Counted from the first letter of the stretch, positions 45,502 through 64,000 are shown. The stretch: 64,000 bases of DNA from an uncultured Bdellovibrionales bacterium (GCA_964551325.1 CAZKBU010000003.1:287672-351671), one strand, 5' to 3'. Notes: generated by a model not told the origin, from the sequence alone. Numbers and translations are program-made.

Positions 45502-45620
45502 GCGGGCAGTCATGTGCCGAGGCCTCAGATTTTTGTTCATAAAATCATACGCTTAGGGTTCTTTCGCTGTTCCGGCCTCGCTCAGAACAGTTCCCCGTAA
45601 ATTTGGCCCGCCCCGAAATA

Positions 45621-45644
45621 ATGCATTGCGCAAATGCGCTGCAT
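45621..45644. promoter_or_regulatory. imperfect 24-bp palindrome atgcattgcgcaaatgcgctgcat ~37 nt upstream of the first HEARH-family gene
   Basis: read directly; the inner gcgcaaatgcgc is perfectly palindromic; it shares the TGCATTGCG core with the repeat at 1605..1621. Confidence 0.35.
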
Positions 45645-45680
45645 CATTGTAGGTTCCGCCTCAACATTTCGGAGGGTTCC

Positions 45681-48363: not shown

Positions 48364-49349
48364 GTTTTCTTCTCTTCAGTGCCGACGCCTCCGCATCCTG
48401 GCTTCACTGGTGCGACGATGTGCCGAACGCGCAACGGACTCGCATCGAGCGTGATCTCGAGGAGTTTTCGCTTCTTCCCGCGGTTCAGGAGGATCCAATT
48501 CTTGCGCGTATGTTAGAGCTCCGGGAGGCTACACCGGAAGCTTTTCTCGAATGGATTCGTGCCCGCGTGAAATATGTTACCGGGCGCAAATTCGATCTCG
48601 ATGCTCCCGGAGTTACCGTGGTGTTGCGCGAGGGCGTGAACTATCCGCAGAAGCGAGAATTACCCTGGGGAGTCGCCGCCAAACAGCCGGCACCCGCTCA
48701 CGAGTCGCTGGAGCAGCCCAAAAGCGTAACAGAAATGTCGAACCTAGGATCAGCGGTGTTTCTTGATGGAAAACTCGCTGGCAATCTTTTGGGAATGCGA
48801 TTGCCCGGAATTGCCGAGCCGGTTCCCGTGACCTCGCCGCGAGTAGGAGTAGTGCAAATCGACCGGGGGCTCTTCCAGAGCCCCGATCCGGACAGACTCG
48901 CCGCTCGCCTTCATAGAGTGAGCACTCTCCTTCACGAGGCGCGCCACTCCGATGGAAACGGAAAGAGTCTGGGTTTTTTTCACTTTGTTTGCCCGGACGG
49001 ATCCGACTATCCGGGTGAAGAAGCCTGCGACGTGGCCGAAAACGGCTCCTACGCCATCGAAGCCCGGGCCTTGAAAATCTTCGCTTCCACTTGCGGAAAA
49101 GACTGCACAAAAAAAGAGCGGGAAATTCTCAGGGTAGAAGCCGCCGATATGCTTGCCCGTGTTTACGATGAGCTTCCCGCATTTTCCGGCGAAGATGCGA
49201 TGCCGCTAAGAAAAAAATGTCTGGAGCGCGGCGATCGATCAGAAGAGTGCCGAAAGGTGTTAACGGAGGCCGAGGGCGGGATGGTTCCGATCGTAAAGGC
49301 GTCCTGGTGGGACACGCGTCCTGAGACTCTCACACTGCCACGGGAATGA
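48333..49349 (+). CDS. secreted HEARH-motif Cys-rich family protein, paralogue 3
   Basis: ORF 48279..49349; probable start at Met19 (48333) giving signal-like LGLSFLLFSADASA; overlaps paralogue 2 by 31 nt; HRVSTLLHEARHSDGNGKSLGFFH; HEARH at 48933..48947. Confidence 0.65.
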   Translation: MGHYARILGLSFLLFSADASASWLHWCDDVPNAQRTRIERDLEEFSLLPAVQEDPILARMLELREATPEAFLEWIRARVKYVTGRKFDLDAPGVTVVLREGVNYPQKRELPWGVAAKQPAPAHESLEQPKSVTEMSNLGSAVFLDGKLAGNLLGMRLPGIAEPVPVTSPRVGVVQIDRGLFQSPDPDRLAARLHRVSTLLHEARHSDGNGKSLGFFHFVCPDGSDYPGEEACDVAENGSYAIEARALKIFASTCGKDCTKKEREILRVEAADMLARVYDELPAFSGEDAMPLRKKCLERGDRSEECRKVLTEAEGGMVPIVKASWWDTRPETLTLPRE

Positions 49350-51009
49350 TTCGGAACTGACCCACATCCACGAGGCCCTTGTCGGTGAGCTTAAGATGAG
49401 GGATCACCGGTAAGCTCAGAAACGCCAGTTGAAGGAACGGCTCTGCGAGGGAGCAGCCCGCGGCGTGGCTGGCAGCATGAAGGTCCCGCAAAGATTTCTC
49501 CACCCGATCGGCGGAGAGTGGAGTCATGAGGCCCCCGAATGGGAGAGCCAACTCGGCCATAACCGCTCCGTTATGGACCACGCAAAATCCGCCGCCGCTT
49601 CGAATCAAGGACTGGAAGGCGAGAGTCATGTCGTGAGTATCTGAACCCACGCAGATGAGATTATGACTGTCGTGTCCCACGCTGGAGGCGATCGCGCCGC
49701 GGAAGTTATCGCCAAATCCTTTCACATAACCGTTGGCCGGGCGGCTGCCATGGCCATAGCGCTCGAGAACTGAAAGTCGGGCCACTCCCGGAGCGTTGTG
49801 AGGAAGTGTGTGGTGATGGGTAATAATCTTTCCCTCTTCCACGCCGATTACATGCACATGACCCGCCGGACCTTCGAGGTCCTTCGGTGCGGGTGCAGCG
49901 GCACGTACCGTATTGGGAAAGGACGTCGCCGAAATCGTAGGGGTTGAAACCTCAGGTAGGGGAATCCCTCGGCAAAACACTTCGCGGATAGAAACCTGGC
50001 GAACGTCGTCGAGAAGCAGAAGGTCCGCTCGCCAACCCGGGGCCACAGCGCCCTTCCGGTCCGGGCCTCGATCCAGCCCGTAGTGCCGGGCCACGCTCCA
50101 GGAGCTGGCCCGGTAGGCTACCTCTGGTGCTACTCCCCCGCGTATCGCTTCCCGTACCAGCCAGTCAATGTGTCCTTCTCGGGCAATGTCGAGAGGGTTG
50201 CGGTCGTCGGTACAGAAGCCCACGCTCGTGGACGTGGCAAGCTTCACAAGCGGCAGAAGAGTGTGAAGGTCTTTGGCCACGCTTCCCTCTCGAATCCAAA
50301 CGGAAATTCCCTTGGTGAGCTTTTCCTCCGCTTCGGGTAGCTGGGAGGATTCGTGGCAGCAGGAAATTCCACACGCGGCATAGGCCGAGAGTTCGCGCCC
50401 CCGGAGGAGAGGGGCGTGGCCGTCGAGTGGGCGATCGGAGAATGCCTGAAGTTTCTCGTGAACGATCGGATCGCCATGGAGCACACCCGGAACGTTCATC
50501 ATCTCCGCAAGTCCAAGAGTCTTCGGATGATCCTTTAGCGGAAGAAGGTCCTTCGCTCCGAGCACCCCAGCCCCGTTGGTCTCCATTCCGGTGGCCGGCA
50601 CGCACGAGGGGAGCATCACCCTAAGATCGAGTGGGAGCGTCTCCGCAGCGCGAAGAAAATATCGAATTCCTTCCACGCCGATTACGTTGGCGATCTCATG
50701 AGGATCGGCGATCACGGTGGTGGTGCCGCGAGGAAGTACGGTAGAGGAAAAATTTTCCGGAATGAGCAGCGAACTTTCAATGTGCACATGGGCGTCGATG
50801 AAACCGGGTACAAGAAATTTTCCCCGTCCGTCGATCTCCCGAATGGCCTGAAGACCTGGCTCGAGTGCCACTATCACCCCATCGGCTATAGCCACGTCGC
50901 CCGTGTGCCAGGAGCAGGAAAAGACGTCGAGCCAAGTTACGTTACGGAAGATCAAGTCGCAGGGGGCTCGCCCTTGGGCGGCGTCGAGGCGTCGAAGTAG
51001 AGAGCTCAT
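49330..51009 (-). CDS. ade: adenine deaminase
   Basis: ORF runs to 51087; more likely start at Met27 (51009), removing the head-on start overlap with 51060(+); GFIDAHVHIESS metal-binding motif, adenine-deaminase subfamily of amidohydrolases. Confidence 0.8.
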   Translation of the reverse strand: MSSLLRRLDAAQGRAPCDLIFRNVTWLDVFSCSWHTGDVAIADGVIVALEPGLQAIREIDGRGKFLVPGFIDAHVHIESSLLIPENFSSTVLPRGTTTVIADPHEIANVIGVEGIRYFLRAAETLPLDLRVMLPSCVPATGMETNGAGVLGAKDLLPLKDHPKTLGLAEMMNVPGVLHGDPIVHEKLQAFSDRPLDGHAPLLRGRELSAYAACGISCCHESSQLPEAEEKLTKGISVWIREGSVAKDLHTLLPLVKLATSTSVGFCTDDRNPLDIAREGHIDWLVREAIRGGVAPEVAYRASSWSVARHYGLDRGPDRKGAVAPGWRADLLLLDDVRQVSIREVFCRGIPLPEVSTPTISATSFPNTVRAAAPAPKDLEGPAGHVHVIGVEEGKIITHHHTLPHNAPGVARLSVLERYGHGSRPANGYVKGFGDNFRGAIASSVGHDSHNLICVGSDTHDMTLAFQSLIRSGGGFCVVHNGAVMAELALPFGGLMTPLSADRVEKSLRDLHAASHAAGCSLAEPFLQLAFLSLPVIPHLKLTDKGLVDVGQFRIIPVAV

Positions 51010-51059
51010 AGAGGGAATGCTACCGCGGCTTTTGGAGGCACGCACACTTTTGTGCCAGA

Positions 51060-51929
51060 ATGACCGCGATGAAGACCGATGGAACAAAACGTTATGCTGC
51101 TGTGCTTTCTCTCACAGAGATGGGGCTCGGGAGCTTACTCCACTCCCTTCACATCCCTCTGGCCGGGCACGCCCTTTCCCTGAACCAGGGAGCGATTCTC
51201 ACATTCGCGCTCAAGCGAGCCGAAAACAGGCGAAAGGCCGTGGAAGGGAGCGCAGCGATTTCCTTGGCGGCCGCTGGAATGAAAGCCCTGTCCCCGGCGG
51301 GAAAGCGCCTCACTCCGATGCTGGGAATTTCAGTGCAGGGCTTTCTTTACGCGCTCGGCACGGCGCTGGGGGGGCGAAATCTGGCGGGGGCAGTGCTGGG
51401 AATGGCTCTCCTTTCCGTGTGGGCGTTTGCTCAGCCCGTGCTTTTGGCTTGGATCATTTTCGGCAAAGAGCTTTTTTATTCCGTTTTTGATCTTTGGCAG
51501 GGCTTGGCGGAAAAAATTGGGTTGCCGGTGGAGACTGGCATCTGGGTGTTGGCAGCGGTGGTGGCGTTGAAAGTACTAGCGGGAGTGGGCGTGGGAGCTT
51601 TGAGCTGGTTGGCAGCGCCCGCGCGCGAGGAGAGTTACATCGCAGGTCTTTCCGAGCGGGTAACCCGGGAGTTCCATCGCATGCGTGGTCCCGTGGAGGT
51701 TGAGTCGGGACGCAGGCTGGCGGTGCTTGCGCTGCGGGATATGGCGCGCCCGTGGTTTGTGGCGAGTTTCGGAGTTTCCTTGGCGTGTTTTTTCGCCTTT
51801 CGAGATAGCAACGTGGAAGCAGCCGTGGTCTATGGTTTTCGGGTTTTGTTGACGGGTTGGCTCGCGTTCTGGTTTTTTCGGTGGGCGGCCAAGCGATGGC
51901 AACTTTGGGAGAAATGGAATGAGAATTAA
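51060..51929 (+). CDS. hypothetical integral membrane protein
   Basis: 289 aa; 6-7 hydrophobic helices; sits inside the purine-catabolism cluster. Confidence 0.45.
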   Translation: MTAMKTDGTKRYAAVLSLTEMGLGSLLHSLHIPLAGHALSLNQGAILTFALKRAENRRKAVEGSAAISLAAAGMKALSPAGKRLTPMLGISVQGFLYALGTALGGRNLAGAVLGMALLSVWAFAQPVLLAWIIFGKELFYSVFDLWQGLAEKIGLPVETGIWVLAAVVALKVLAGVGVGALSWLAAPAREESYIAGLSERVTREFHRMRGPVEVESGRRLAVLALRDMARPWFVASFGVSLACFFAFRDSNVEAAVVYGFRVLLTGWLAFWFFRWAAKRWQLWEKWNEN

Positions 51930-52488
51930 GCCGCTGGCAGATTATCCGCTTCTGGTGCGCCTGATTTTTTGGGCGCAACGAAAAAAATACGGTGAGGTGC
52001 TTTTGCCAGCTCGAATCTGGGGTCGTTCGCCGAAGCTGCTCTATGGTCTTCAGTGTTTTTATCGAGCTATTGATCGTAAAAGTTCCCCGATTGAACCCGC
52101 TCTACGGGCTTTGATCAATGTGAAGGTTTCTCAGATCAACCACTGTGCGTTCTGTGTAGACATCAGCAGTTCGCTTCTCGAAAAACGCGGAGTGTCGGCT
52201 GAAAAAATAGCGGCCTTGCCCCATTTTATGGAGACCGCGCTTTTTTCCTCAAGGGAACGTGTTGCATTAGCCTACGCTGTGGCTATCACTCTGCCGGAGA
52301 GAAGAGTTGACGATGCTTTGTTTCAGGAATTGAGAAAAGAGTTTTCCGAGGACGAGGTTGTGGAGCTTACGGCCCTGATCGGGTACCAAAACCTCTCTAG
52401 CAAATTCAACGCTGCTTTGGAGGTGCCGCCCCAGGGGTTTTGTCTTGTAGGGCGGGCTTCATACTCAGAAGCTCCGCGGCCACACTGA
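51919..52488 (+). CDS. carboxymuconolactone decarboxylase / AhpD-like family protein
   Basis: INHCAFCVD CxxC-type AhpD core motif; 189 aa; 83-nt convergent overlap with xdhC. Confidence 0.55.
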   Translation: MRIKPLADYPLLVRLIFWAQRKKYGEVLLPARIWGRSPKLLYGLQCFYRAIDRKSSPIEPALRALINVKVSQINHCAFCVDISSSLLEKRGVSAEKIAALPHFMETALFSSRERVALAYAVAITLPERRVDDALFQELRKEFSEDEVVELTALIGYQNLSSKFNAALEVPPQGFCLVGRASYSEAPRPH

Positions 52489-53221
52489 TCGCAATTTCCT
52501 GCGGATCATTGCCGCCGATTGAAAGGCCGATGGGCGAGCGCAGCTCCTCGATCAGTGCAGGCGGAACTCCACTTTCTTCCAGTTCCCGGCGCATTTTTCC
52601 CGCTTTCACTTGGCTGCCCATGGCACCGATGAACGGGGCCGACGGATGCACGCGAAACAGTTCACGAAGAATCGGCATGTCCGTGGCATGGCCCTGGGTC
52701 ATCACCACGAAAAACGCCGTAGATGGAAGTGATGCCACAAGATTTGCAGGTTCCGCCACCAGCTCAACTCGGAGATTCGGGGCTGATGGAAGGCGAGCAA
52801 TCCACTCATTCCTCGGATCAACGCAGGTGATTCGGCAGGAAAGCGGCAGCAACACGCGCACCAGGGCCTGGGCCACATGGCCCGCTCCAAAGATCACGAT
52901 TTCCCAGGCGCTTGAGGCGTGGGGTTCAAAGAGGTAGGTGGTCTCGCCTCCGCAGGTCATGCCGATGTCGCGCTGAAGATTCCAAGTAGCGAGCCATGGC
53001 GCGGTTTCCATTTCTGCGAGCATTCTCTGAGATTCTCTGATGCAGCGAGCTTCGATCTTACCGCCCCCCACAGTGCCGTGATGTAAGCCCCTTGCCGTAA
53101 TAATCGCCTTTGCCCCCGGATCCGACGGCGCACCACCGCGAACTCCCACCAGGGTGACCACCACAAATGGTGTGCCCAAACGCATAAGTTCTTCGGCTGC
53201 GGAAAAATGTGTCAACGCCAC
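52406..53221 (-). CDS. xdhC: xanthine dehydrogenase accessory/maturation factor XdhC
   Basis: XdhC/CoxI-like N-domain plus Rossmann-like VIFGAGHVAQALVRVL; stop/start overlap with xdhB. Confidence 0.7.
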   Translation of the reverse strand: MALTHFSAAEELMRLGTPFVVVTLVGVRGGAPSDPGAKAIITARGLHHGTVGGGKIEARCIRESQRMLAEMETAPWLATWNLQRDIGMTCGGETTYLFEPHASSAWEIVIFGAGHVAQALVRVLLPLSCRITCVDPRNEWIARLPSAPNLRVELVAEPANLVASLPSTAFFVVMTQGHATDMPILRELFRVHPSAPFIGAMGSQVKAGKMRRELEESGVPPALIEELRSPIGLSIGGNDPQEIAISVAAELLSMKPALQDKTPGAAPPKQR

Positions 53222-55572
53222 TCCTCGAATCGCTCTGGATCAATGGCACGAAAAACCTCTTCCTGCGTGGCTGGGAGCTCCAGTTCGGGAAGCTTTTCCT
53301 TCCATGACGGCAATCCTCGGAGGGCGTCGTGAATTGCGGTCCAAACGGAAATCGCCAAAAGGAGAGGAGGTTCTCCAACCGCTTTCGTGCCCCGCACGTT
53401 TACGCTGTTGTGGGGATTATCCAGTAGGTCGATGTTAAATTCCCGCGGCGTATCCTGAATGTTCGGAATCTTGTAGGTGGAGGGGGCGTGGGAGAGGAGC
53501 AGGCCGCCTTCCGAGTAGTGAAGTTTTTCCGTGGTCACCCATCCCATGCCTTGCACGAAAGCTCCCGCCACCTGACCTCGGTCGAGAGACTCGTTCACGG
53601 GGCGTCCTAAATCCATCAGAATGTCCACCCGTCGAACCTTTGTTTCGCCAGTGTGAGAGTCGATCTCCACTTCCGAGCACGCGGCACCTTGGGTGAAGTA
53701 GAGAAACGCTCTTCCCTGACCAGTGAGTTTATTGAAGGTGAGGTGAGGAAACTTGTAGTGAGCATACTCCGACAGAGAAACTCGGTTCAGGTAGGCCTCG
53801 TTAACCACATCTTGAAACGAAACTTTTCGCTTCGGATCGGCGCGATCCACCACATATCCGTTACAAAAATCCACCGCTGGTTCTTCCGCTGGAATCACCG
53901 CTTCGGACTCGGTGCCGAGGCCGGCGGTTTTGGCGGCCCAACGCTCGCTCGGGAGCTGCATCAGGCGAAGGGCGATATGACCAAGTCGGTGACGGATGCG
54001 AAAGGAGGCCACTTCAGCGGCGGCTCCATTCAAGTCGGTACCCGACGATGCGGCAGTGGGAGAGGTGTTGGCGTTTTTTTCCGTAGACGTGGGCATCAGC
54101 CGCACCGATACGGCGGGTAAACCGAACACATCGGCCACGATCTTTCCAATTCGCGTATTTACACCTTGGCCCATTTCCGTGGCGCCAGTGCTGACCTGAA
54201 GCGAGCCGTCTCGGTGAATCACAACAAGAGCATTTGCTTGGTTCAGGTACCGAGTCGTGAATGAGATACCGAATTTCACGGGCGTGAGAGAGAGTCCTCG
54301 CCGCGTGGCTTGCGACTTCCGATTATGAGTCTCGATCTCTCGTCTACGAGCCCGATACGCGCAGCTTTTCTCTAAGCGGGAGAAAAGTTCGGGAAGTAGG
54401 TTATTTTCCACCTTCTGGCCGTAGGGGGTTATGTCGTGGTCCGGCCCCTCGTAACAGTTGATCCGTCTCACATCGAGCGGGTCCATTTTCAGAAAGTGGG
54501 CGATCTCTTCCACGATACGTTCGATGGTGGCCACGCCCTTGGGGCCGCCAAAACCGCGAAACGCCGTGTGGGGATGAAAATTGGTCCGGCAAACCTGGCC
54601 GCGCACTTGAAAATCGGGAATGAAATACGCGTTGTCGGTGTGGAGCATCGCCCGCTCCATGATGGCAGTGGAGAGATCCGCGCACGCGCCACCGTCGGAG
54701 AAAAGATTCACATCAAGAGCGAGGATACGGCCCTTCTGATCGAATCCCACCTTCCAATGGTTTTCGAAGGGGTTCCGCTTACCAGTGATCACCATGTCGT
54801 CGTCTTTGGTGAGCGCGATGCGGGCCGGTCGTCCGAGTTTTTGGGCGGCGAGGGCGGCATACGCGGCGAATGGAGCAGCCTGGGATTCTTTTCCGCCAAA
54901 AGCACCGCCCATGCGCTTCACCACACAAATCACCCGGGAGTAGTCGATGCCGAGAGCGTGAGCTACCACATGCTGCACCTCGGAGGGATGTTGGGCGGAA
55001 GAGTGGACCTCGATCACACCGTCTTCCCGGGGAATGGCGGCGGCGGCCTGGCTTTCGAGATAGAAGTGCTCTGCGCCTCGAATCACGATGGTACCTTCCA
55101 GACGATGTGGAGCGCTTAGGAGGGCGCTTTCAGCATCTCCGCGGGCAATTGTTCTTTCGAATCCAATAAACGACTTGCGGCTCCTAGCCTCTTGGATGGA
55201 GAGAATGGGATTCAGAATTTCCCAATCCACCTTCACTAAGTCTCGAGCCAGGCGCGCAGCGGTGGGGGAGTCGGCGACCACGAGCGCATAGGGCTCGCCG
55301 CAATAATTTACTTCTTCGTGGGCGAGAAGAGGTTGATCCTGAAAAACTGTGCCCCAGAGGTTCTCGTGAAAATCGTCGGCTGTGAACACGGCCACCACGC
55401 CGGGTGCCTTTGTGGCAGCGAGAGTGTGGAGGCGCTTAATACGGGCCCGGGCATGAGGGCTCCAACACACCTCCACATAGACCTCGCCGCGCACGGGCGG
55501 ACGATCGTCGATATACTCGCTGCGCCCCGTAACGTGACTTCGCGCAGAATCGTGGGAGGCATCGCGTTTCAC
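53212..55572 (-). CDS. xdhB: xanthine dehydrogenase molybdopterin-binding subunit
   Basis: 786 aa; aldehyde oxidase/xanthine dehydrogenase a/b hammerhead and MoCo-binding domains (GGAFGGKE, QGMGW motifs). Confidence 0.9.
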   Translation of the reverse strand: MKRDASHDSARSHVTGRSEYIDDRPPVRGEVYVEVCWSPHARARIKRLHTLAATKAPGVVAVFTADDFHENLWGTVFQDQPLLAHEEVNYCGEPYALVVADSPTAARLARDLVKVDWEILNPILSIQEARSRKSFIGFERTIARGDAESALLSAPHRLEGTIVIRGAEHFYLESQAAAAIPREDGVIEVHSSAQHPSEVQHVVAHALGIDYSRVICVVKRMGGAFGGKESQAAPFAAYAALAAQKLGRPARIALTKDDDMVITGKRNPFENHWKVGFDQKGRILALDVNLFSDGGACADLSTAIMERAMLHTDNAYFIPDFQVRGQVCRTNFHPHTAFRGFGGPKGVATIERIVEEIAHFLKMDPLDVRRINCYEGPDHDITPYGQKVENNLLPELFSRLEKSCAYRARRREIETHNRKSQATRRGLSLTPVKFGISFTTRYLNQANALVVIHRDGSLQVSTGATEMGQGVNTRIGKIVADVFGLPAVSVRLMPTSTEKNANTSPTAASSGTDLNGAAAEVASFRIRHRLGHIALRLMQLPSERWAAKTAGLGTESEAVIPAEEPAVDFCNGYVVDRADPKRKVSFQDVVNEAYLNRVSLSEYAHYKFPHLTFNKLTGQGRAFLYFTQGAACSEVEIDSHTGETKVRRVDILMDLGRPVNESLDRGQVAGAFVQGMGWVTTEKLHYSEGGLLLSHAPSTYKIPNIQDTPREFNIDLLDNPHNSVNVRGTKAVGEPPLLLAISVWTAIHDALRGLPSWKEKLPELELPATQEEVFRAIDPERFEEWR

Positions 55573-56990
55573 AGGGATCCCCCCGCTTCGTCGAAGAACT
55601 TCTTCAGAAAAGCTTCGGCGAGTCCCCGTCGAAAAGCACTCGATCCGCGGAGATCGGATAGTGGCGAGATTTCTTTTTGCAGAGCGTTTCGTGCTTCGTG
55701 GAATGCCTCTTTATCGAGACGACGCCCAAGGAGCGCCTTCTCCGTGGCCGGCAGGCGAAGAGCGGTTGCGGCCACGCCGCCGTAGGCGATGGAGATCTGT
55801 TCGAGAGTTTCATTCCGTTTCTTCCAACGAAATGCCGCGTTTACGGCGGAAATATCGAGATCCTTTCGCTGGGATGCCTTGAAGATGCGAACCACTTCAT
55901 TCTTCTTCGGAAGATCGAAAATCACATGGGTCACGATTTCTCCCGGACGGAGAGCGGTTTTCTTGTAGCCGAGGAAAAAATTCCGGAGTGGAACTTTGCG
56001 CTTTCCCTTGGGTCCGTGGACTTCCACATCCGCCTCGAGCACGAGGAGCGCGGGAGGGGTGTCGGCGATTGGAGAAGCGTTCACCACGTTGCCCACGAGA
56101 GTCGCTACGTTCTTGATTTGCGGTGAGGCGAACAGATCCAGAAATCGGCCGAGCTCGGAGTTTTTTGTAGCTTGCCTAACGTTGGCCAAAGTAACCCGGG
56201 CACCGACCCGAAGCCGGCCTTTGGTTGCTTTCATTTCATAAAGCTCCGAAACCTGGTGCAGGCTCAGAAGATGAGTGAGGCGGTGCCGATATTTATTGTG
56301 AACCACCCCTAAATCAGTGGCTGCACCTGCGATCCGCACTTGCTTATTTTTTTTGATCCACGCCAGGGCGGCACGGAGAGTGGTCGGGGCGAAAAAGGAA
56401 TAGTCGGCAGTCTCAAGAAGGAGGGGTTTTCGGAGCAGAGTCCTCAACTCCCGCTTTTGGGCCGGGGAAAGAAATCGCTTTTCCACCGACTCGCAGGCGC
56501 TCACATTCACCGAGCATGCCGCGTCCAAAATCGACTGGTAGCCGGTGCAGCGGCATAGGTTGCCGGTGAGGGCATTGGCGGCGTCCTTCTGGGTGATGCC
56601 TTCGTGGGTGGGGATTTTCTTCTCCACGAGGCCCGTGAGCGACATCACGAATCCCGGTGTGCAGTATCCGCATTGGGAGCCATGACAATCCACCATGGCC
56701 TGTTGAACTGGCGACAGCTTTTGCTCTGTACCGAGGGCTTCCACCGTGATGAGGCTGGAGCCGTGGAGCTGTCCGAGCGGGGCGATGCAGGAGTTGATGG
56801 GAAGAAACCGCCCCCGCTTTTCGAGGGGAAACCAACGCAAGACTGTGCAGGCGCCGCAGTCGCCCTCAGCGCAGACGACCTTGGTGCCCGTCAGGCCTCG
56901 TTCCCTGCGAAGGTATTCCGCGAGCATCAGGGGGGCGTGGTCGGCGCCGACCTCCACCCGTTCTCCATTCAGATGGAAGACGATTTTCAT
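55569..56990 (-). CDS. xdhA: xanthine dehydrogenase small subunit (2Fe-2S + FAD-binding)
   Basis: CAEGDCGACTV and CGYCTPG [2Fe-2S] motifs; FAD-binding PCMH domain; ATGA overlap with xdhB. Confidence 0.9.
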   Translation of the reverse strand: MKIVFHLNGERVEVGADHAPLMLAEYLRRERGLTGTKVVCAEGDCGACTVLRWFPLEKRGRFLPINSCIAPLGQLHGSSLITVEALGTEQKLSPVQQAMVDCHGSQCGYCTPGFVMSLTGLVEKKIPTHEGITQKDAANALTGNLCRCTGYQSILDAACSVNVSACESVEKRFLSPAQKRELRTLLRKPLLLETADYSFFAPTTLRAALAWIKKNKQVRIAGAATDLGVVHNKYRHRLTHLLSLHQVSELYEMKATKGRLRVGARVTLANVRQATKNSELGRFLDLFASPQIKNVATLVGNVVNASPIADTPPALLVLEADVEVHGPKGKRKVPLRNFFLGYKKTALRPGEIVTHVIFDLPKKNEVVRIFKASQRKDLDISAVNAAFRWKKRNETLEQISIAYGGVAATALRLPATEKALLGRRLDKEAFHEARNALQKEISPLSDLRGSSAFRRGLAEAFLKKFFDEAGGSL

Positions 56991-57037: not shown

Positions 57038-58183
57038 ATGGAACTATGGTTGGAATATCTACTTCGTTTCTCCCATCTGGTGGCGGGGATCGCCTGGATC
57101 GGGAGCTCCTTTTATTTCATCTGGCTCGACAGTAGCTTCGAACCGCCGGAGACGCCGCGTCGTAACGTCGAGGGTGAGCTCTTCATGGTCCACGGTGGTT
57201 TTTACTACCAGGTGGAGAAGAAAAAGATCTATCCCGGCGAACTTCCCCGGGTGCTGCATTGGTTCAAGTGGGAGGCGACTCTCACCTGGGTGACCGGGAT
57301 CGTGCTCCTGGCGGTGCTTTACTTCCTTAAAGGGGCGAGTCTTCTGATAGATCCGTCTGTGATGGCTCTCACCCAGGCCCAGGCGGTTACCCTGGCGCTG
57401 GGGCTCATCGCGGGTTGCTGGCTGGTCTATGATCTTCTCTGGAATCCACGGGTACCGAAGCCGCTGAGCACGGCCGTGTCGGTGGTTTTCTTCGCACTTC
57501 TGATTTGGGGCCTTACCCGCGTATTTAGCGGGCGCGGTGCTTTCATCATGACGGGAGCGATTTTCGGCAGTCTCATGTTGGCCAATGTGTGGATGAGAAT
57601 TCTCCCTGGGCAAGCAAAAATGCTGCGTGAAGCACAGGAGGGAAGAGTTCCCGATTACTCGGTGGGATTGAAGTCGAAAACCCGCTCCGTACACAACACC
57701 TACTTCACGTTTCCGGTGCTTTTCATCATGCTGAGCAACCATTACCCGCAGATCTACAACCACGCTTGGAACTGGCTTCTGTTGATCGTGCTTGCGGTGA
57801 GCGGCGCTCTCACACGCCATGCGATGGTCACGAAGCGGCCCTTAGAGCGATGGACCCTTTTCCCTGCGGCGATGGGACTTGCCGCGTTGGTATGGGCTTC
57901 GGGTCACACCGGATCTGCGTCCATGGGGGGCGGCGCTCGACCTACCTGGGCGGAAGTGGCGCCGGTAATCGAGAGGCGTTGTGCGTCTTGCCACAGCCTC
58001 CGGCCCACCGATGATGTATGGAAGGTGGCGCCTCTTGGCGCGATTTTCGATTCAGAGAATTCTTTGCGAGCGAAAGCAGAAAAAGTAATGCTTCAAGTGG
58101 TCACTGCCCGCACGATGCCTCTTGGCAATAAAACCGCGATGACCGACGAGGAGCGGGACCTAGTGCGTCGGTTCTTGGAATAG
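57038..58183 (+). CDS. candidate membrane cytochrome-c urate hydroxylase (PuuD-like: multi-TM DUF989-type domain + C-terminal haem-c domain)
   Basis: 381 aa; ~7-8 TM helices followed by a C-terminal soluble domain with CASCH haem-binding motif; divergently adjacent to xdhABC. Confidence 0.5.
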   Translation: MELWLEYLLRFSHLVAGIAWIGSSFYFIWLDSSFEPPETPRRNVEGELFMVHGGFYYQVEKKKIYPGELPRVLHWFKWEATLTWVTGIVLLAVLYFLKGASLLIDPSVMALTQAQAVTLALGLIAGCWLVYDLLWNPRVPKPLSTAVSVVFFALLIWGLTRVFSGRGAFIMTGAIFGSLMLANVWMRILPGQAKMLREAQEGRVPDYSVGLKSKTRSVHNTYFTFPVLFIMLSNHYPQIYNHAWNWLLLIVLAVSGALTRHAMVTKRPLERWTLFPAAMGLAALVWASGHTGSASMGGGARPTWAEVAPVIERRCASCHSLRPTDDVWKVAPLGAIFDSENSLRAKAEKVMLQVVTARTMPLGNKTAMTDEERDLVRRFLE

Positions 58184-60097: not shown

Positions 60098-63000
60098 TTA
60101 TTTCGAAAACACCCTAATTCGATTCACTCCGCCGTCGGGCCATGTCTCGAGTCTGATCTCGGATATTTCACCGGCATAATTCACGGGAATAATCTTGCGG
60201 TTGCCGGCAAAGGCTTTTACCGGTACTCGTCCGCCGGAAAGGTCTATCCAGCCCGTGGGTGTTCGCCCCCAGAGAGCCACTTCCACCGGGTTGTTGTTTA
60301 CAAAAAAGGTGAAGTCGAGCTCCACTTTTTTGATTCGGGCGGAGTGTTCAAGTGCGATCGTGACCTCTTCGTGATGTCCGGGAACTCGACTGCGGGCGCT
60401 CTCGAGTCCGTCGAACATGTGAATGGGCGGGAAGGGCGAGATTACCTGAGCTGCCGGCCCATAGTGCTCATTGGAAGCATGCACCACTCTGCTACCGGCG
60501 AACGGAATCGTGAGGGGCTTTTTCGCTTTGGGGATTGCGTCCGAATAGCGACCGAAGCCGGGGCTAAATCCTGGAGGTGGCTCACTCCACAGGCCGAGAC
60601 GGGTGAGGCCGCCATCGGGGCCGGCTTCCACTCGAATTTCTTGAAATTCTTCCGTGAGTGAATTCAGATCCACGCGGCAATAGCCGTGGCCCACAAGCTT
60701 CACGGCAGGGAGAAACTCCTTCCACGGATCTTTTGAAGACCGTCGACCCAGCAGTCGCGCCCATTCCATCTGATTCCCATCGTGGAAGCGGGTTGAAAGC
60801 TCCACAAATCGAACGCGGCCCGGGCGCAATAGGCGAAGCTCCAAATACTCTTGCCCTGTTTCGTTGTGCCGGGCTGTTTCCCAGCTATCCATGATTTTCC
60901 CTTGCCGTCCGAAGAGCTCTGGATCAAAAACCGGCTCGTGAGAACTCACCAGGTTTTCCGCGCGCGCGAATTTCTGGTTCGAGCAGCGCAAAACGAAGGC
61001 TCCCGCAGCGAGATTCGATGCGGCTGCTGCGCTCACCGGTCCCTTCACGAGAATTTCCTCCGGGAGGTCAGGCAAAAAGGCGTCGAAGAGAAGCTTCTTG
61101 TAGCCGAGATTCACGATTTGCTCTTGTGGTAAGCTGCTCGACTGAAAATCGTGAGTGAACTCTCCTACGCCCTGAATGCCGAGGGCGCGAATCAGGGTCT
61201 GGGCGACTTCCGCCACAAAAGGCACGGCTTCATTATCGCCTTCAGAAAAAATAACGAATCCTTTGCCACGGTCCGGGCCCGCAAAACAGTGAACATAGAT
61301 GGCCCGGTAGCCTTCGTTGGCACCCTGATGAATCATCAAGCGATTCGAGCCTGCTTCGGCCACAAAAACACCGAGGCCCATAAAGCATCCCATGAAATCC
61401 CGGCAGCCTCGGTCGGTTCCATGGAGCATCTGCACTGCTGTGTCGTGGGAGATTGGTCCCGCCCCGTTCACGCTATGATAGGCGTCTTCCAAAGACTGGA
61501 GGAAACGGGCCATTCCTCGAGCTGTGGCGTAGCCTCCGGCAGCGAAAGCGGGGAAACGCAGATGACCAGGTGCGAGCCCATCGATTTCGGAGGTGTCGAG
61601 GGTGATTTCGGGAAATGCTTGGAGAAATTCTTTCGTGGCCAGGGCCGCAGGCTTTCCCGTGTTTTTTTCCACAAGGTGTTGGAGCACTAAGTAGCCTCCA
61701 CCCGAGTAGTGAAACTCTCGTCCCGGCTTGGCGATGACCTTCACCGGATCGTAACCGTGTTTACCCTGGATAAGCTCTTCCACTGGAGGCACCGGCCCTG
61801 AAAATCCCTTCACATAGTGCATGGAAAGGGCGCTGTGGCTCATGAGGTGGGCCAAGGTTACTCCCTCCATGCCCGGAATTTCCTCCACTTTGCGATTCAC
61901 GTCGCGGAAAAGTTCACAGCAATAGGCGCTCGCCACGGTTTTACTGAGCGACGCAATTTGAAACTTCGAATTCGGCTGGGCACATCCGAGAGCAATTTCC
62001 TGCACATGACCGAGGTGAATAACGGCGAGGGAGGCGGCCCGGATTCCGTGTTTCTTGCGTACCACCTCAAGGCCTGAAAGTCCGCAGGCTTCGTGAATGC
62101 GTTTTCGTGAAATTTCCCAAAGTGCTTCGCGGGCGGCAGTAATCTCTTCGTTTCGAGAGCGGGATATTCGTGCTTGCAGAATTTTTAGGAGTTCCTCCCC
62201 GGTTTTTCCTTTCGCCGAAACGAGAAACTTGAAACCGAACTTTTTTCGATACTCATCTCCCAAGGAACAAAGAACGGCCTTTTCTGTTTTTACTTCCGCC
62301 TGCTCGCCTGCCGCCAGAGCGTCTAAAGTGCGGGAGGATTGACCGATATCGCCGTGAAAAGACGCGGCCTCCTGAATCTCCGCTTCGGAAAAACTCTTCA
62401 CGAGGCTTTCCGCAAAGGGCAGGTCCACAACCGCCCGGCGGGTCATTTCATCTGCAAATCGGCGGCACCCGCACACTTCAAACCAGTGATTCCATTTCTC
62501 CACCTTGGGGGGGAGACGGAACTTATCCGCGTCCAAACGGACGGCGGCGGCCCAGGGGTCGGAAGCATTGCGTACTTCATCTAGTGTGAACGGGAGGAGA
62601 AGTTCAGTGGCGAACTCCGCGGGTTCGGGATCGGTCATGAGCTGGAGCATGAGCCGCTGAGCGATTGGGTACCAGCGAGACGTGCGCTCATCCCATTTTA
62701 CTTGCACGATTTTCTTCTCATTCGAAAGATCGCGACGAATGAAATTCATCTCTTCGTGAACGATGCAAAGGAAATCTTCCAAGGAGAAGCGTCCGTGGCG
62801 AATCTCGTGCCAGACTTCCCATCGCGAACGCTCGGCAGTGGCCAGGTCGTCCATCACACGCACGGCTTCCCCTTCCACCACCGTAGGGAGAGCCACGCAC
62901 CCGTTTCCGCTCAACCAGTCCGTGAGGTACTGAAGTGACTGGAACACGTTGTAGCGGATTTCGTCTGGGTGATGATTGGGAATGAAATCGGACTCTTTGA

Positions 63001-64000
63001 TGTCGGCAACGATGAGCGATCGAACGTATTGGGGATCGTTCTTATCCAGGCCCTCGATATCGGGCCCGTCGATAAAATTAAAAAGATCGTGGTGGAACTC
63101 TTGAGGGAGGAGACCGCTCACCAGTTCCGTGAGTGGGCCGGGGTTGCCTTGGGAGCGCAGCTTCCAGGCTTCCACAAGCGCTAGCCCGATTCGCACGAAG
63201 TCGGGGTGCGCCACCCAGTAACCGGTGAGGTTGCGCTTCATCTGTGTCACTACGTCGCGGATAAAACCCTTGAGCGTTACATGTAGAGAGCGTTCTTTTC
63301 CGGTGATCGGAAGGATTCCATACATTCCCCCCACCTGAATTCCACCGCGGGAACCCACCGCATCGGCTAGAAGCAGATGGGAGGCTTTGATGTACTTGAT
63401 TACGATATCGGGATCGGCCTTCACAGGAATCCGATAGTGCGGCTCTTCTCGGAAAATGCGAGCCATGGACGCGAGATAGTCGTGCCAGCCAAGCGAAGCG
63501 CCGGCGAAATAAGGATAAAGTGCATCCATGATTTCGTGGGCACGAAGAATGGCCCGAGGGTTCTCCAACACGATCATGAGACGAACGGTGCCGAGCTTGT
63601 ATTCGGGATGAATTTTTTGGATGCGCGCTTCCGCCGCTCTGATCATCTTGGCTACGTAAGCAGCCTCTTCCTCGTTTTCGAGTTTCGGCACGTAGAACAC
63701 GAGGGCGCGCGGGTTATGCCAGTTACGGAAAAGATGAAGTGCGAAATCCCAGAGATGGAGGGGGATAGGGTTTTCTTTCCAGAATAGAAATGGCGCGGGC
63801 ATGGCGAGGCCCGGGAAGCGTTTGATCGGAAGGGATAGGTGGTCTTTGGCTAACTCATAGCTACGACCGTTCTCCTCCAAATGTAGGGAGCCATCGAAAC
63901 AACGGGAAAGATTCTCGGCCGCGTCGCAGAGATTTTGTCGGAGTGGAGTTTTTGAGTCTTCGTCGTCGGCTCCCCACATCGGCGAGGCACCTTTTTCGAG
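60098..64000 (-). CDS. multidomain purine-catabolism fusion protein: malate synthase - OHCU decarboxylase - serine beta-lactamase-like - allantoicase (x2 repeats); N-terminus runs off the window
   Basis: reading frame is open from Met at 63979 to the window edge, and the malate synthase core starts too early to be complete; malate synthase motifs FYVPKLENEEEA, ASLGWHDY, GGIQVGGMYGILP (~aa 1-475); OHCU decarboxylase HGDIGQ...FGFKFLVSAKGKTGEELL (~aa 480-630; 62090..62542); SxxK serine-hydrolase motif IASLSKT (~aa 640-945; 61145..62062); two allantoicase repeats with DSWETAR (~aa 960-1293; 60101..61102). Confidence 0.75.
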   Translation of the reverse strand, partial: LEKGASPMWGADDEDSKTPLRQNLCDAAENLSRCFDGSLHLEENGRSYELAKDHLSLPIKRFPGLAMPAPFLFWKENPIPLHLWDFALHLFRNWHNPRALVFYVPKLENEEEAAYVAKMIRAAEARIQKIHPEYKLGTVRLMIVLENPRAILRAHEIMDALYPYFAGASLGWHDYLASMARIFREEPHYRIPVKADPDIVIKYIKASHLLLADAVGSRGGIQVGGMYGILPITGKERSLHVTLKGFIRDVVTQMKRNLTGYWVAHPDFVRIGLALVEAWKLRSQGNPGPLTELVSGLLPQEFHHDLFNFIDGPDIEGLDKNDPQYVRSLIVADIKESDFIPNHHPDEIRYNVFQSLQYLTDWLSGNGCVALPTVVEGEAVRVMDDLATAERSRWEVWHEIRHGRFSLEDFLCIVHEEMNFIRRDLSNEKKIVQVKWDERTSRWYPIAQRLMLQLMTDPEPAEFATELLLPFTLDEVRNASDPWAAAVRLDADKFRLPPKVEKWNHWFEVCGCRRFADEMTRRAVVDLPFAESLVKSFSEAEIQEAASFHGDIGQSSRTLDALAAGEQAEVKTEKAVLCSLGDEYRKKFGFKFLVSAKGKTGEELLKILQARISRSRNEEITAAREALWEISRKRIHEACGLSGLEVVRKKHGIRAASLAVIHLGHVQEIALGCAQPNSKFQIASLSKTVASAYCCELFRDVNRKVEEIPGMEGVTLAHLMSHSALSMHYVKGFSGPVPPVEELIQGKHGYDPVKVIAKPGREFHYSGGGYLVLQHLVEKNTGKPAALATKEFLQAFPEITLDTSEIDGLAPGHLRFPAFAAGGYATARGMARFLQSLEDAYHSVNGAGPISHDTAVQMLHGTDRGCRDFMGCFMGLGVFVAEAGSNRLMIHQGANEGYRAIYVHCFAGPDRGKGFVIFSEGDNEAVPFVAEVAQTLIRALGIQGVGEFTHDFQSSSLPQEQIVNLGYKKLLFDAFLPDLPEEILVKGPVSAAAASNLAAGAFVLRCSNQKFARAENLVSSHEPVFDPELFGRQGKIMDSWETARHNETGQEYLELRLLRPGRVRFVELSTRFHDGNQMEWARLLGRRSSKDPWKEFLPAVKLVGHGYCRVDLNSLTEEFQEIRVEAGPDGGLTRLGLWSEPPPGFSPGFGRYSDAIPKAKKPLTIPFAGSRVVHASNEHYGPAAQVISPFPPIHMFDGLESARSRVPGHHEEVTIALEHSARIKKVELDFTFFVNNNPVEVALWGRTPTGWIDLSGGRVPVKAFAGNRKIIPVNYAGEISEIRLETWPDGGVNRIRVFSK

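What the first reader, a model, noticed from the sequence alone, without database searches (positions are those of the whole stretch)
60098..64000. Megaprotein fusing four purine-catabolism activities: malate synthase + OHCU decarboxylase + beta-lactamase-like + allantoicase
One >1293-aa ORF carries, N to C, four domains read directly from the translation:
- a malate synthase core (FYVPKLENEEEA / ASLGWHDY / GGMYGILP);
- an OHCU decarboxylase domain (FGFKFLVSAKGKTGEELL...);
- a serine beta-lactamase/PBP-like domain (SLSK);
- two allantoicase repeats (DSWETAR).

OHCU decarboxylase makes allantoin, allantoicase consumes allantoate and yields glyoxylate plus urea, and malate synthase condenses glyoxylate with acetyl-CoA. 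The polypeptide could therefore channel the ureide branch of urate degradation to malate. It sits next to xdhABC, adenine deaminase and a PuuD-like urate hydroxylase. I do not know of a described enzyme with this architecture.
Basis: partly seen in the sequence, partly recalled or inferred. Interest (0 to 1): 0.9.

Follow-up and report, generated by a model that had tools for sequence, protein, structure and literature searches.

The report
Four-domain urate-breakdown enzyme, candidate new allantoinase
One very long, conserved bacterial gene joins four enzyme domains of uric-acid breakdown, and its beta-lactamase-like domain is probably a previously unrecognised kind of allantoinase, while its "malate synthase" domain may in fact split ureidoglycolate.

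Summary
Window 60098-64000 (- strand) is one uninterrupted reading frame that runs off the window. The full protein is 1474 aa. Pfam finds malate-synthase barrel plus C-domain, OHCU decarboxylase, serine beta-lactamase and two allantoicase repeats.

More than 640 homologues share this architecture, in Bdellovibrionota and Planctomycetota MAGs. They usually sit next to HIU hydrolase, PuuD urate oxidase and xdhABC. No paper describes the protein.

The interpretation needs revision in two places.

1. **Beta-lactamase domain.** No AllB- or PuuE-type allantoinase lies near any of about 40 loci. In two unfused loci every urate-to-glyoxylate step has a known enzyme except allantoinase, and the only unassigned part is this domain, fused to allantoicase. 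It is therefore the best allantoinase candidate, which would be a third, serine-type allantoinase.

2. **Malate-synthase domain.** It belongs to a deep, distinct "GWHDY" clade (R276W, W277H, an insertion before the catalytic Asp). In those same two loci it is absent and a classical AllA ureidoglycolate lyase sits beside the gene. It probably supplies ureidoglycolate lyase activity, as eukaryotic malate-synthase-like proteins do. Its CoA-contact residues are largely kept, so true malate synthase activity is not excluded.

All functions are inferred from sequence and gene context; none has been assayed.

The parts
60098..64000 (-). Four-domain gene, C-terminal 1300 codons plus stop. The N-terminal 174 codons lie beyond the window end. 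The full product is P0001, 1474 aa.
   Evidence: Open frame; 100% match to P0001
62531..64000 (-). Malate-synthase-family domain of the 'GWHDY' clade (P0001 residues 1-664; the window holds residues 175-664). Equivalents of E. coli MSA residues: R166 at 63818-63820, E250 at 63563-63565, R276->W at 63485-63487, W277->H at 63482-63484, D278 at 63479-63481, D447 at 62846-62848.
   Evidence: Pfam MS_TIM-barrel and MS_C; alignment to 3CUZ; residue mapping; clade tree
62081..62530 (-). OHCU decarboxylase domain (P0001 residues 665-814). His at 62354-62356, Glu at 62303-62305, C-terminal Arg at 62099-62101.
   Evidence: Pfam PF09349; alignment to Klebsiella HpxQ 3O7H/5UOU, E 3e-10; 33% identity to the stand-alone OHCU decarboxylase of L049
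61118..62080 (-). Class-C/DD-peptidase-fold serine hydrolase domain, the candidate allantoinase (P0001 residues 815-1135). Ser of S-L-S-K at 61949-61951, Lys at 61940-61942, Tyr of Y-S-G at 61706-61708, His of H-Q-G at 61328-61330.
   Evidence: Pfam PF00144; AlphaFold2 pLDDT 94; Foldseek PDB matches; invariant motifs; gene-context logic
60101..61117 (-). Allantoicase, two repeats (P0001 residues 1136-1474). Motifs MDSWETARH (W at 60881-60883) and MFDGLESARSR (E at 60401-60403).
   Evidence: Pfam PF03561 with 2 stretches, E 3e-39; TIGR02961 match over 998-1299; conservation
57038..58183 (+). PuuD-type (Urate_ox_N) membrane urate oxidase, the pathway step upstream of the fusion protein.
   Evidence: Pfam PF06181, E 4e-96; adjacent to the fusion gene in 18 related loci
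52406..56990 (-). xdhA (55569-56990), xdhB (53212-55572) and xdhC (52406-53221): xanthine dehydrogenase and its maturation factor, which supply urate.
   Evidence: Pfam; recurrent neighbours in about 10 loci
49330..51087 (-). Adenine deaminase, which feeds adenine into the pathway.
   Evidence: Pfam Adenine_deam_C and Amidohydro_1

Best explanation
The gene encodes a cytoplasmic multi-enzyme of uric-acid breakdown. PuuD urate oxidase and a separately encoded HIU hydrolase make OHCU. The fusion protein then carries the remaining steps.

1. The OHCU decarboxylase domain makes (S)-allantoin.
2. The beta-lactamase-fold domain opens the hydantoin ring to give allantoate. It would do this by serine acylation and deacylation using Ser-x-x-Lys, Tyr-Ser-Gly and His-Gln-Gly. 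That makes it a non-homologous, third type of allantoinase.
3. The two-repeat allantoicase domain releases urea and (S)-ureidoglycolate.
4. The divergent malate-synthase-family domain handles the last intermediate. Most likely it cleaves ureidoglycolate to glyoxylate and urea (ureidoglycolate lyase). It may then also condense glyoxylate with acetyl-CoA.

**Shown here:** the domain families, intact catalytic motifs, purifying selection across two phyla, and the gene contexts. **Inferred:** each catalytic activity, above all steps 2 and 4, and any channelling between domains.
For: **Real and conserved.**
- 642 homologues; the 120 listed share one architecture.
- 39 genome loci in Bdellovibrionota and Planctomycetota.
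- Catalytic motifs of all four domains are invariant in 157 sequences.

**Pathway context.**
- An HIU hydrolase (transthyretin family) gene is called, usually directly beside the fusion gene, in 23 loci.
- PuuD is present in 18 loci, xdhABC in about 10, and classical uricase in L013.

**Allantoinase gap.**
- tblastn with E. coli AllB, AllA, AllC, AllE, AllD, Gcl and AceA found nothing in the window or in 42 loci.
- Pfam scans of all recurrent neighbour clusters and of 40 further neighbour ORFs found no Amidohydro_1 or PuuE-type allantoinase.

**Natural unfused versions.** L049 and L054 have different gene orders. Both encode HIU hydrolase, PuuD, a stand-alone OHCU decarboxylase, a two-domain BL+allantoicase protein and an AllA-type ureidoglycolate lyase. 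Every step has a known family except allantoinase, and the beta-lactamase domain is the only unassigned part.

**AllA and the malate-synthase-like domain replace each other.**
- AllA is adjacent when the MS-like domain is absent (2 independent loci).
- AllA is absent within 10 kb when the MS-like domain is present (about 45 loci).

**The BL-allantoicase pair stays fused** when the MS-like part is a separate gene (L028, L055).

**Beta-lactamase domain structure.** It folds confidently (pLDDT 94) as a class-C/DD-peptidase-type serine hydrolase. Its structural neighbours include small-amide hydrolases such as D-amino-acid amidase.

**MS-like clade.**
- It is monophyletic in 100 of 100 bootstraps.
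- It carries R276W, W277H and an 8-13 aa insertion before the catalytic Asp.
- It is fused to allantoicase a second time, independently, in probable eukaryotes with PTS1-like C-termini.

**Precedent.** Zebrafish malate-synthase-like protein is a ureidoglycolate lyase and lacks malate synthase activity (PMC10120013).
Against: - No activity has been measured.
- Whole genomes could not be searched, so an AllB or PuuE allantoinase, or an AllA, could lie elsewhere in these genomes.
- Only two independent unfused AllA loci were found, and the loci compared are phylogenetically related.
- In the Halobacteriovoraceae-type BL+allantoicase proteins the motif Tyr is Phe, and His-Gln-Gly is His-His-Ala or His-His-Ser. 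This is odd for an essential catalytic residue.
- No BL-fold enzyme is known to open a hydantoin ring (own knowledge).
- The MS-like domain keeps the residues that contact acetyl-CoA in E. coli MSA (listed in PMC3112382): I94->L, G96, M102 (M or L), M330 and P369. Only T95->F changes. In the zebrafish lyase that site is degenerate.
- Genuine malate synthase G has Phe-Leu at the R276-W277 positions (own knowledge), so R276W alone does not argue against malate synthase.
- Stand-alone members of the MS-like clade (L041, L042) are not in purine contexts.
- The zebrafish sequence could not be obtained for direct comparison.
Confidence: 0.55

Rival explanations
1. The N-terminal domain is a true malate synthase that traps glyoxylate as malate. 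Ureidoglycolate is split by an enzyme encoded elsewhere, spontaneously, or by a side activity of allantoicase. The beta-lactamase domain still needs a role, which may or may not be allantoinase.
For: - The catalytic Arg166, Glu250, Asp278 and Asp447 equivalents are all invariant.
- The acetyl-CoA contact residues of E. coli MSA are largely retained in the fusion-protein clade (residue list from PMC3112382).
- Genuine malate synthase genes do occur in purine clusters of other bacteria and in the yeast DAL cluster (PMC10120013, discussion).
- Trapping toxic glyoxylate makes physiological sense.
Against: - It scores 123 bits against a 594-bit cut-off for TIGR01344 malate synthase A.
- About 45% of residues conserved in at least 90% of 21 canonical MSA sequences are replaced.
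- The domain lies in a clade separated by a long branch and fused twice independently to allantoicase.
- It alternates with AllA in otherwise equivalent clusters.
- This model leaves the ureidoglycolate step uncovered in about 40 loci.
Confidence: 0.3
2. The beta-lactamase-like domain is not an allantoinase. It could be a structural or oligomerisation module. It could also be a hydrolase for another step (ureidoglycolate or allantoate amidohydrolysis) or act on an unrelated substrate. The real allantoinase would then be encoded elsewhere.
For: - Tyr-to-Phe and His-to-Asn changes occur in one sub-lineage.
- Stand-alone homologues of 427-431 aa exist in eukaryotes, outside any recognisable purine context.
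- Sequence similarity to any characterised enzyme is nil (PDB E about 0.1).
- Whole genomes were not searched.
Against: - Ser-x-x-Lys, Tyr-Ser-Gly and His-Gln-Gly, and about 40 further positions, are invariant over about 60 members at 43-55% identity. This speaks for catalysis.
- In L049 and L054 allantoicase and AllA already cover the allantoate and ureidoglycolate steps, so the only uncovered step is allantoinase.
- The domain is always fused N-terminal to allantoicase, which uses the product of allantoinase.
Confidence: 0.25
3. The long ORF is an artefact, with separate genes joined by a sequencing or assembly error.
For: Some database relatives are clearly broken by frameshifts or contig ends (L051, L056, L057, L040). 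This shows that errors do occur in this gene family.
Against: - The errors split the gene rather than join it.
- The uninterrupted four-domain frame recurs in hundreds of independent assemblies from several sources.
- Inter-domain linkers are conserved.
Confidence: 0.01

Closest known systems
Eukaryotic malate-synthase-like ureidoglycolate lyase (zebrafish DrMSL/UGL; PMC10120013)
   Same: It is a malate-synthase-family protein recruited to the end of purine catabolism and associated with allantoicase. The glyoxylate and Mg site and the catalytic Asp are kept. Arg276 is replaced, and there is an insertion near the junction of the glyoxylate and CoA sites.
   Different: - Arg276 is Trp here (Ile in DrMSL), and Trp365 is kept (Met in DrMSL).
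- The insertion is 8-13 aa here, against 2 aa.
- CoA-contact residues are largely kept here.
- This protein is bacterial and fused to three other enzymes, whereas that paper found the UGL group only in eukaryotes.
- A direct sequence comparison was not possible.
Malate synthase A (E. coli AceB, PDB 3CUZ)
   Same: It has the same TIM barrel plus C-terminal domain. The R166, E250, D278, D447, W365 and M330 equivalents are present.
   Different: - Identity is 23-28%, and the score is far below the family cut-off.
- The motif is GWHDY instead of GRWDY.
- Many canonical invariants are replaced.
- It forms a separate clade.
Bifunctional allantoicase/OHCU decarboxylase (NCBIfam NF010371, PRK13797)
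   Same: It is a fusion of allantoicase with OHCU decarboxylase in one polypeptide of purine catabolism.
   Different: That protein has two domains and about 520 aa, with no beta-lactamase or malate-synthase domain. The match here is 124 bits against a cut-off of 814.
Known allantoinases: AllB/DAL1 (metal-dependent amidohydrolase) and PuuE (metal-independent, polysaccharide-deacetylase fold)
   Same: The proposed reaction and pathway position are the same. PuuE is a precedent for recruiting an unrelated fold to this step when AllB is missing (own knowledge).
   Different: There is no sequence or fold relationship. The candidate here is a serine acyl-enzyme hydrolase of the class-C beta-lactamase/DD-peptidase fold.
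Class-C beta-lactamase/DD-peptidase-fold hydrolases (family VIII esterase IS11 7SPN, R61 DD-peptidase 3PTE, D-amino-acid amidase 2DRW, Pab87 2QMI, LACTB 7V21)
   Same: The fold matches (TM about 0.7), with S-x-x-K, a Tyr motif and an H-x-G motif.
   Different: - Identity is only 16-19%.
- The second motif is Y-S-G rather than Y-x-N.
- The domain is compact (about 320 aa).
- It is always tied to allantoicase in bacteria.

Membership tests
Malate synthase A (TIGR01344 / Pfam MS_TIM-barrel + MS_C) | Matches the family profile above the curated cut-off | tested here: inconclusive
   The Pfam domain models pass: 68.7 bits against a cut-off of 26.4, and 46.4 against 23.1. The equivalog model TIGR01344 fails: 122.7 bits against 594.5.
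Malate synthase A (TIGR01344 / Pfam MS_TIM-barrel + MS_C) | Catalytic Arg166, Mg ligands Glu250 and Asp278, catalytic base Asp447 | tested here: met
   All are present and invariant in the clade.
Malate synthase A (TIGR01344 / Pfam MS_TIM-barrel + MS_C) | Canonical G-R-W-D-Y glyoxylate-site motif and the other residues conserved in canonical MSA | tested here: not met
   The motif is G-W-H-D-Y. About 45% of residues conserved in at least 90% of 21 canonical MSA sequences are replaced, and there is an 8-aa insertion before Asp447.
Malate synthase A (TIGR01344 / Pfam MS_TIM-barrel + MS_C) | Acetyl-CoA binding pocket (ecMSA I94, T95, G96, M102, M330, P369; PMC3112382) | tested here: inconclusive
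   The equivalents are L, F, G, M or L, M and P. The pocket is mostly kept, but binding cannot be tested by sequence.
Malate synthase A (TIGR01344 / Pfam MS_TIM-barrel + MS_C) | Acetyl-CoA + glyoxylate -> malate + CoA activity | not testable with these tools
   Needs an enzyme assay.
Malate-synthase-like ureidoglycolate lyase (PMC10120013) | Arg276 and Trp365 replaced, CoA site degenerate, small insertion at the site interface | tested here: inconclusive
   Arg276 is replaced by Trp and an insertion is present. Trp365 and most CoA contacts are kept.
Malate-synthase-like ureidoglycolate lyase (PMC10120013) | Association with allantoicase and substitution for AllA-type lyase | tested here: met
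   The domain is fused to allantoicase in two architectures. It is mutually exclusive with adjacent AllA across loci.
OHCU decarboxylase (PF09349) | Profile match plus the conserved His, Glu-Gln and C-terminal Arg seen in solved enzymes | tested here: met
   Pfam scores 64.7 bits against a cut-off of 24. The alignment to 3O7H/5UOU shows FHGDIG, EQ, SAKG and the Arg. The NCBIfam equivalog-domain models are below cut-off.
Allantoicase (PF03561, TIGR02961) | Two allantoicase repeats with the conserved (D/E)-x-W-E-x-x-R and P-D-G-G motifs | tested here: met
   Two Pfam stretches score 134.7 bits against a cut-off of 27. The motifs are invariant. The TIGR02961 equivalog scores 148.7 against 277.9, so the domain is a divergent member.
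Serine beta-lactamase / DD-peptidase superfamily (PF00144) | Fold plus S-x-x-K, Y-x-N and (K/H)-x-G motifs | tested here: met
   Pfam scores 64.1 bits against a cut-off of 27. The AlphaFold2 model has pLDDT 94, and Foldseek gives E 1e-16 to 7SPN, 3PTE and others. S-L-S-K, Y-S-G (Gly in place of Asn) and H-Q-G are invariant.
Allantoinase (functional class, EC 3.5.2.5) | Homology to AllB/DAL1 or PuuE | tested here: not met
   There is no similarity. The candidate would be a non-homologous analogue.
Allantoinase (functional class, EC 3.5.2.5) | Hydrolysis of (S)-allantoin to allantoate | not testable with these tools
   This is inferred only from the pathway gap and gene context.

The most novel reading that the evidence does not exclude
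The beta-lactamase-fold domain is a third, serine-nucleophile type of allantoinase, unrelated to AllB and PuuE. The GWHDY malate-synthase-family domain is a bacterial ureidoglycolate lyase. It may even be a two-step enzyme that releases urea from ureidoglycolate and then condenses the bound glyoxylate with acetyl-CoA. Together with OHCU decarboxylase and allantoicase, these would make one polypeptide that carries four or five consecutive steps from OHCU to glyoxylate or malate. A bacterial lyase of this family would also overturn the view that malate-synthase-derived ureidoglycolate lyases arose only in eukaryotes.
Probability: 0.4. Interest if true: 0.8.

Novelty: new variant of a known kind. 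Interest (0 to 1): 0.7.

Why it matters
The ureide pathway is a textbook case of steps filled by unrelated enzymes: three urate oxidase types, two allantoinases, two routes from allantoate, and two ureidoglycolate lyase types.

- A serine-hydrolase allantoinase would add a new enzyme family to the pathway. It would also give a first physiological substrate to a large, unannotated branch of the beta-lactamase superfamily, now labelled 'serine hydrolase', which includes stand-alone eukaryotic homologues.
- A bacterial malate-synthase-like ureidoglycolate lyase would revise the proposed eukaryote-only origin of that enzyme.
- Four consecutive activities on one chain would give a compact system for studying substrate channelling of unstable or toxic intermediates (OHCU, ureidoglycolate, glyoxylate).
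- It would also correct the annotation of purine catabolism in Bdellovibrionota and Planctomycetota genomes, which would otherwise appear to lack allantoinase.

Tried and rejected
- **Extending the window.** The exact-sequence look-up of P0001 found no contig on record. The genome scan did not return the source genome itself.
- **Getting the zebrafish MSL sequence.** The paper has no supplement held as text. A search with the eukaryote-like P0203 gave only 12 unnamed hits. None of the top 150 representatives looked like it.
- **Lohman et al. 2008 on E. coli MSA** is not held. CoA-contact residues were taken from PMC3112382 instead.
- **Stand-alone members of the MS-like clade** (P0148, P0150) gave uninformative contexts.
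- **Apparent 'BL+allantoicase' and 'OHCU+BL+allantoicase' proteins** P0290, P0291 and P0295 turned out to be frameshifted or truncated fusion genes. They were not used as natural splits.
- **The AlphaFold database fold library** was not available.
- **A first tree script** timed out and was redone.
- **Rejected:** R276W as decisive evidence against malate synthase. Malate synthase G has non-Arg residues at that position (own knowledge).
- **Rejected:** the assembly-artefact explanation.
- **Not done:**
  - a whole-genome presence/absence test for allB, puuE and allA;
  - a structure model of the MS-like domain, which would not discriminate between the two functions.

Full report
**1. The observation**

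The - strand frame from 64000 to the stop at 60098-60100 has 1300 sense codons and no stop. The ATG at 63979 that the ORF tool lists is internal, because the frame is open to the window edge.

A database protein, P0001 (1474 aa, NCBI, on a 487,739-bp contig), is 100% identical over the window part. It adds 174 N-terminal residues.

Pfam places five models above their curated cut-offs:

| Model | Window-protein residues |
|---|---|
| MS_TIM-barrel | 63-273 |
| MS_C | 346-466 |
| OHCU_decarbox | 530-635 |
| Beta-lactamase | 649-927 |
| Allantoicase (two repeats) | 1000 to the C-terminus (NCBIfam match 998-1299) |

The NCBIfam equivalog models for malate synthase A, allantoicase and OHCU decarboxylase all match but stay well below their cut-offs. 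Each domain is therefore a divergent member of its family.

**2. The fusion is real and widespread**

- 642 homologues were found. The best 120 (53-62% identity, most of them 1500-1580 aa) carry the same four Pfam families. Where named, they are called 'serine hydrolase' or 'malate synthase' from Bdellovibrionota MAGs.
- A scan of one genome per species found 39 loci, all in MAGs. They come from Bacteriovoracaceae, Pseudobdellovibrionaceae, Oligoflexia, Silvanigrellaceae and, at 48-50% identity, Planctomycetia and Phycisphaerales.
- In an alignment of 157 members, the diagnostic motifs of all four domains are at least 95% conserved. The protein is under purifying selection throughout.
- Broken copies exist (L040, L051, L056, L057). 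These are frameshifts or contig ends that split the gene. That is the opposite of an artefactual fusion.

**3. Gene context**

I called ORFs in all loci, clustered them and annotated every recurrent cluster.

- An HIU hydrolase (transthyretin family) gene is called in 23 loci, usually directly beside the fusion gene. tblastn detects one in 34 loci.
- PuuD is adjacent in 18 loci and xdhABC in about 10.
- A cytidine/guanine-deaminase-type gene is present in 7 loci.
- A classical uricase replaces PuuD in L013.

The fusion therefore sits in a urate-degradation operon, downstream of urate oxidase and HIU hydrolase. Together those two enzymes make OHCU.

**4. The missing step and the beta-lactamase domain**

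Four steps lead from OHCU to glyoxylate: OHCU decarboxylase, allantoinase, allantoicase and ureidoglycolate lyase.

No known allantoinase is nearby:

- tblastn with E. coli AllB, and also AllA, AllC, AllE, AllD, Gcl, Hyi, GlxR, GlxK and AceA, gave no hit at E < 1e-3 in the 64-kb window or in 42 loci.
- Pfam scans of the recurrent clusters and of 40 further neighbour ORFs (230-520 aa, within 5 kb) found no amidohydrolase-type or PuuE-type protein.

The decisive material came from a search with the unfused Halobacteriovoraceae gene. Two loci with different gene orders, L049 and L054, encode the following (Pfam confirmed):

- HIU hydrolase
- PuuD
- a stand-alone OHCU decarboxylase
- a two-domain BL+allantoicase protein (P0288, P0289)
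- a classical AllA-type ureidoglycolate lyase (PF04115, E 1e-50 and 2e-40)

In these loci every step has a known enzyme family except allantoinase, and the beta-lactamase domain is the only part without a role.

Further support:

- The BL-allantoicase pair also stays fused when the malate-synthase-like part is a separate gene (L028, L055).
- The domain has no sequence relative in the PDB (E about 0.1). It nevertheless models with pLDDT 94 and pTM 0.93.
- It matches family VIII esterases, R61 DD-peptidase, SurE, Pab87, LACTB, D-amino-acid amidase and AmpC at TM about 0.7 and 16-19% identity.
- S-L-S-K, Y-S-G, H-Q-G and about 40 more positions are invariant. The same signature occurs in the two-domain proteins and in stand-alone eukaryotic homologues such as one from Amorphochlora amoebiformis.

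I therefore propose that a serine acyl-enzyme mechanism opens the C4-N3 amide of allantoin. This is an inference from pathway logic, not a demonstrated activity.

Caveats:

- In the Halobacteriovoraceae sub-lineage the Tyr is Phe, and H-Q-G is H-H-A or H-H-S.
- Whole genomes could not be searched.

**5. The malate-synthase-like domain**

*What is kept.* Aligned to E. coli MSA (3CUZ, and AceB from NC_000913), the domain keeps Arg166, Glu250, Asp278, Asp447, Trp365 and Cys438.

*What differs.*

- Identity to AceB is only 23-28%.
- G-R-W-D-Y is replaced by G-W-H-D-Y.
- An 8-13 aa insertion lies directly before Asp447.
- About 45% of the residues conserved in at least 90% of 21 canonical MSA sequences are replaced.

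*The clade.* An exhaustive profile-free search gave 724 relatives. A neighbour-joining tree shows a 'GWHDY' clade separated from canonical MSA in 100 of 100 bootstraps. The clade holds three kinds of protein:

- the fusion-protein domains;
- stand-alone proteins of 666-780 aa;
- two-domain MS-like+allantoicase proteins of about 1030-1110 aa. These lie on short, single-gene contigs with polypyrimidine-rich flanks, and their C-termini are PTS1-like (-AKL, -ASL). They are probably eukaryotic.

*Published precedent.* A 2023 PNAS paper showed that zebrafish malate-synthase-like protein is a ureidoglycolate lyase without malate synthase activity. It has Arg276 and Trp365 replaced, a degenerate CoA site and a small insertion. 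The authors found that group only in eukaryotes (PMC10120013).

*Comparative evidence here.* The pattern points the same way. AllA is adjacent exactly where the MS-like domain is absent (L049/L050, L054). AllA is absent within 10 kb in all of the roughly 45 loci that have the MS-like domain.

*Evidence against a pure lyase.*

- The residues that contact acetyl-CoA in E. coli MSA (I94, T95, G96, M102, M330, P369; PMC3112382) are L, F, G, M or L, M and P in the fusion clade. The pocket is largely kept.
- Malate synthase G has non-Arg residues at the Arg276 position (own knowledge).

I rate lyase activity, alone or followed by condensation with acetyl-CoA, at about 55-60%. I rate malate synthase only at about 30%.

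**6. The other two domains**

- *OHCU decarboxylase.* This part aligns to Klebsiella HpxQ (E 3e-10) with the His, Glu-Gln, S-A-K-G and C-terminal Arg conserved. It is 33% identical to the stand-alone enzyme of L049.
- *Allantoicase.* This part has both repeats with invariant MDSWE..RH, PDGG..R, MFDG.E..RSR and NNNP motifs.

**7. Comparison with what is known, and novelty**

Fusions of allantoicase with OHCU decarboxylase are known (NCBIfam NF010371). So are links between malate synthase and purine clusters (PMC10120013).

Six literature searches found no description of any of the following:

- this four-domain protein;
- a beta-lactamase-fold allantoinase;
- a bacterial malate-synthase-like lyase.

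The sequences are already in public databases under generic names. I class the finding as a new variant of a known pathway. It contains one probable new enzyme family for a known reaction.

**8. Verdict**

- Interest is 0.7. The claims are specific and can be tested directly with simple assays.

Noticed in passing
window 58207-60084 (+): A 625-aa ORF lies between PuuD and the fusion gene. It encodes a polytopic membrane protein with no Pfam match. Its G+C is lower (0.46-0.51) than that of its neighbours (0.55-0.58). It resembles a glycosyltransferase of the ArnT/PMT type only by eye.
   Followed up: partly
window 45603-46793, 47473-48363, 48279-49349 (+): Three neighbouring ORFs (396, 296 and 356 aa) cluster together by BLASTP as paralogues. 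The two that were scanned (47473-48363 and 48279-49349) have no Pfam match. They lie just upstream of adenine deaminase.
   Followed up: no
window 51060-52488 (+): A 289-aa ORF without a Pfam match and a carboxymuconolactone-decarboxylase-family (CMD) protein sit between adenine deaminase and xdhC. Their role in the purine cluster is unknown.
   Followed up: no
window 57038-58183 (+) versus L001 8168-9706, L028 16602-17996: The window's PuuD-type urate oxidase is 381 aa. Orthologues next to the fusion gene in other loci are 460-560 aa, and at least one of them (L028) ends in a CxxCH (haem c) motif. The window copy may lack a C-terminal part or use a separate partner.
   Followed up: no
L028 9887-16263; L055 2231-8629: This is the Halobacteriovoraceae-type unfused cluster. 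It holds a stand-alone MS-like gene, BL+allantoicase with Tyr->Phe and H-Q-G->H-H-A/S, a third single allantoicase repeat (166-179 aa) and one or two class-V aminotransferases that may turn glyoxylate into glycine. No OHCU decarboxylase or HIU hydrolase is nearby.
   Followed up: partly
P0301 (Amorphochlora amoebiformis), P0302-P0309; L052, L053: Stand-alone 427-431 aa homologues of the beta-lactamase-like domain (36-40% identity, same ASLSK / YSGGG / HQAAN signature) occur in eukaryotic contexts with split genes, protein kinases and WD40 proteins. Their function is unknown.
   Followed up: partly
P0197, P0203, P0271-P0275; L045-L048: These are two-domain MS-like+allantoicase proteins with PTS1-like C-termini. 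They lie on 3-4 kb single-gene contigs with polypyrimidine-rich flanks, so they are probably protist transcripts or genes. This is a second, independent fusion of the GWHDY clade to allantoicase.
   Followed up: partly
P0178 (1312 aa): This family member has degenerate MS-like and OHCU parts: the Asp278 and Arg166 regions and the OHCU His are lost. Its beta-lactamase and allantoicase parts keep all motifs.
   Followed up: no
L013 8649-9809 (-); L039: In some Planctomycetota loci a classical cofactor-less uricase (PF01014) sits next to the fusion gene in place of PuuD.
   Followed up: partly
L003, L014, L015, L019 (gene directly upstream of the fusion gene): A RidA/L-PSP-family gene (127-131 aa) replaces HIU hydrolase as the immediate upstream neighbour in four loci. 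It lies beside adenylate or guanylate cyclase genes and a TonB-dependent receptor.
   Followed up: no
L040 1-4985: In a MAG labelled Gammaproteobacteria the fusion gene is broken into five ORF pieces. This is either a pseudogene or a poor assembly.
   Followed up: no
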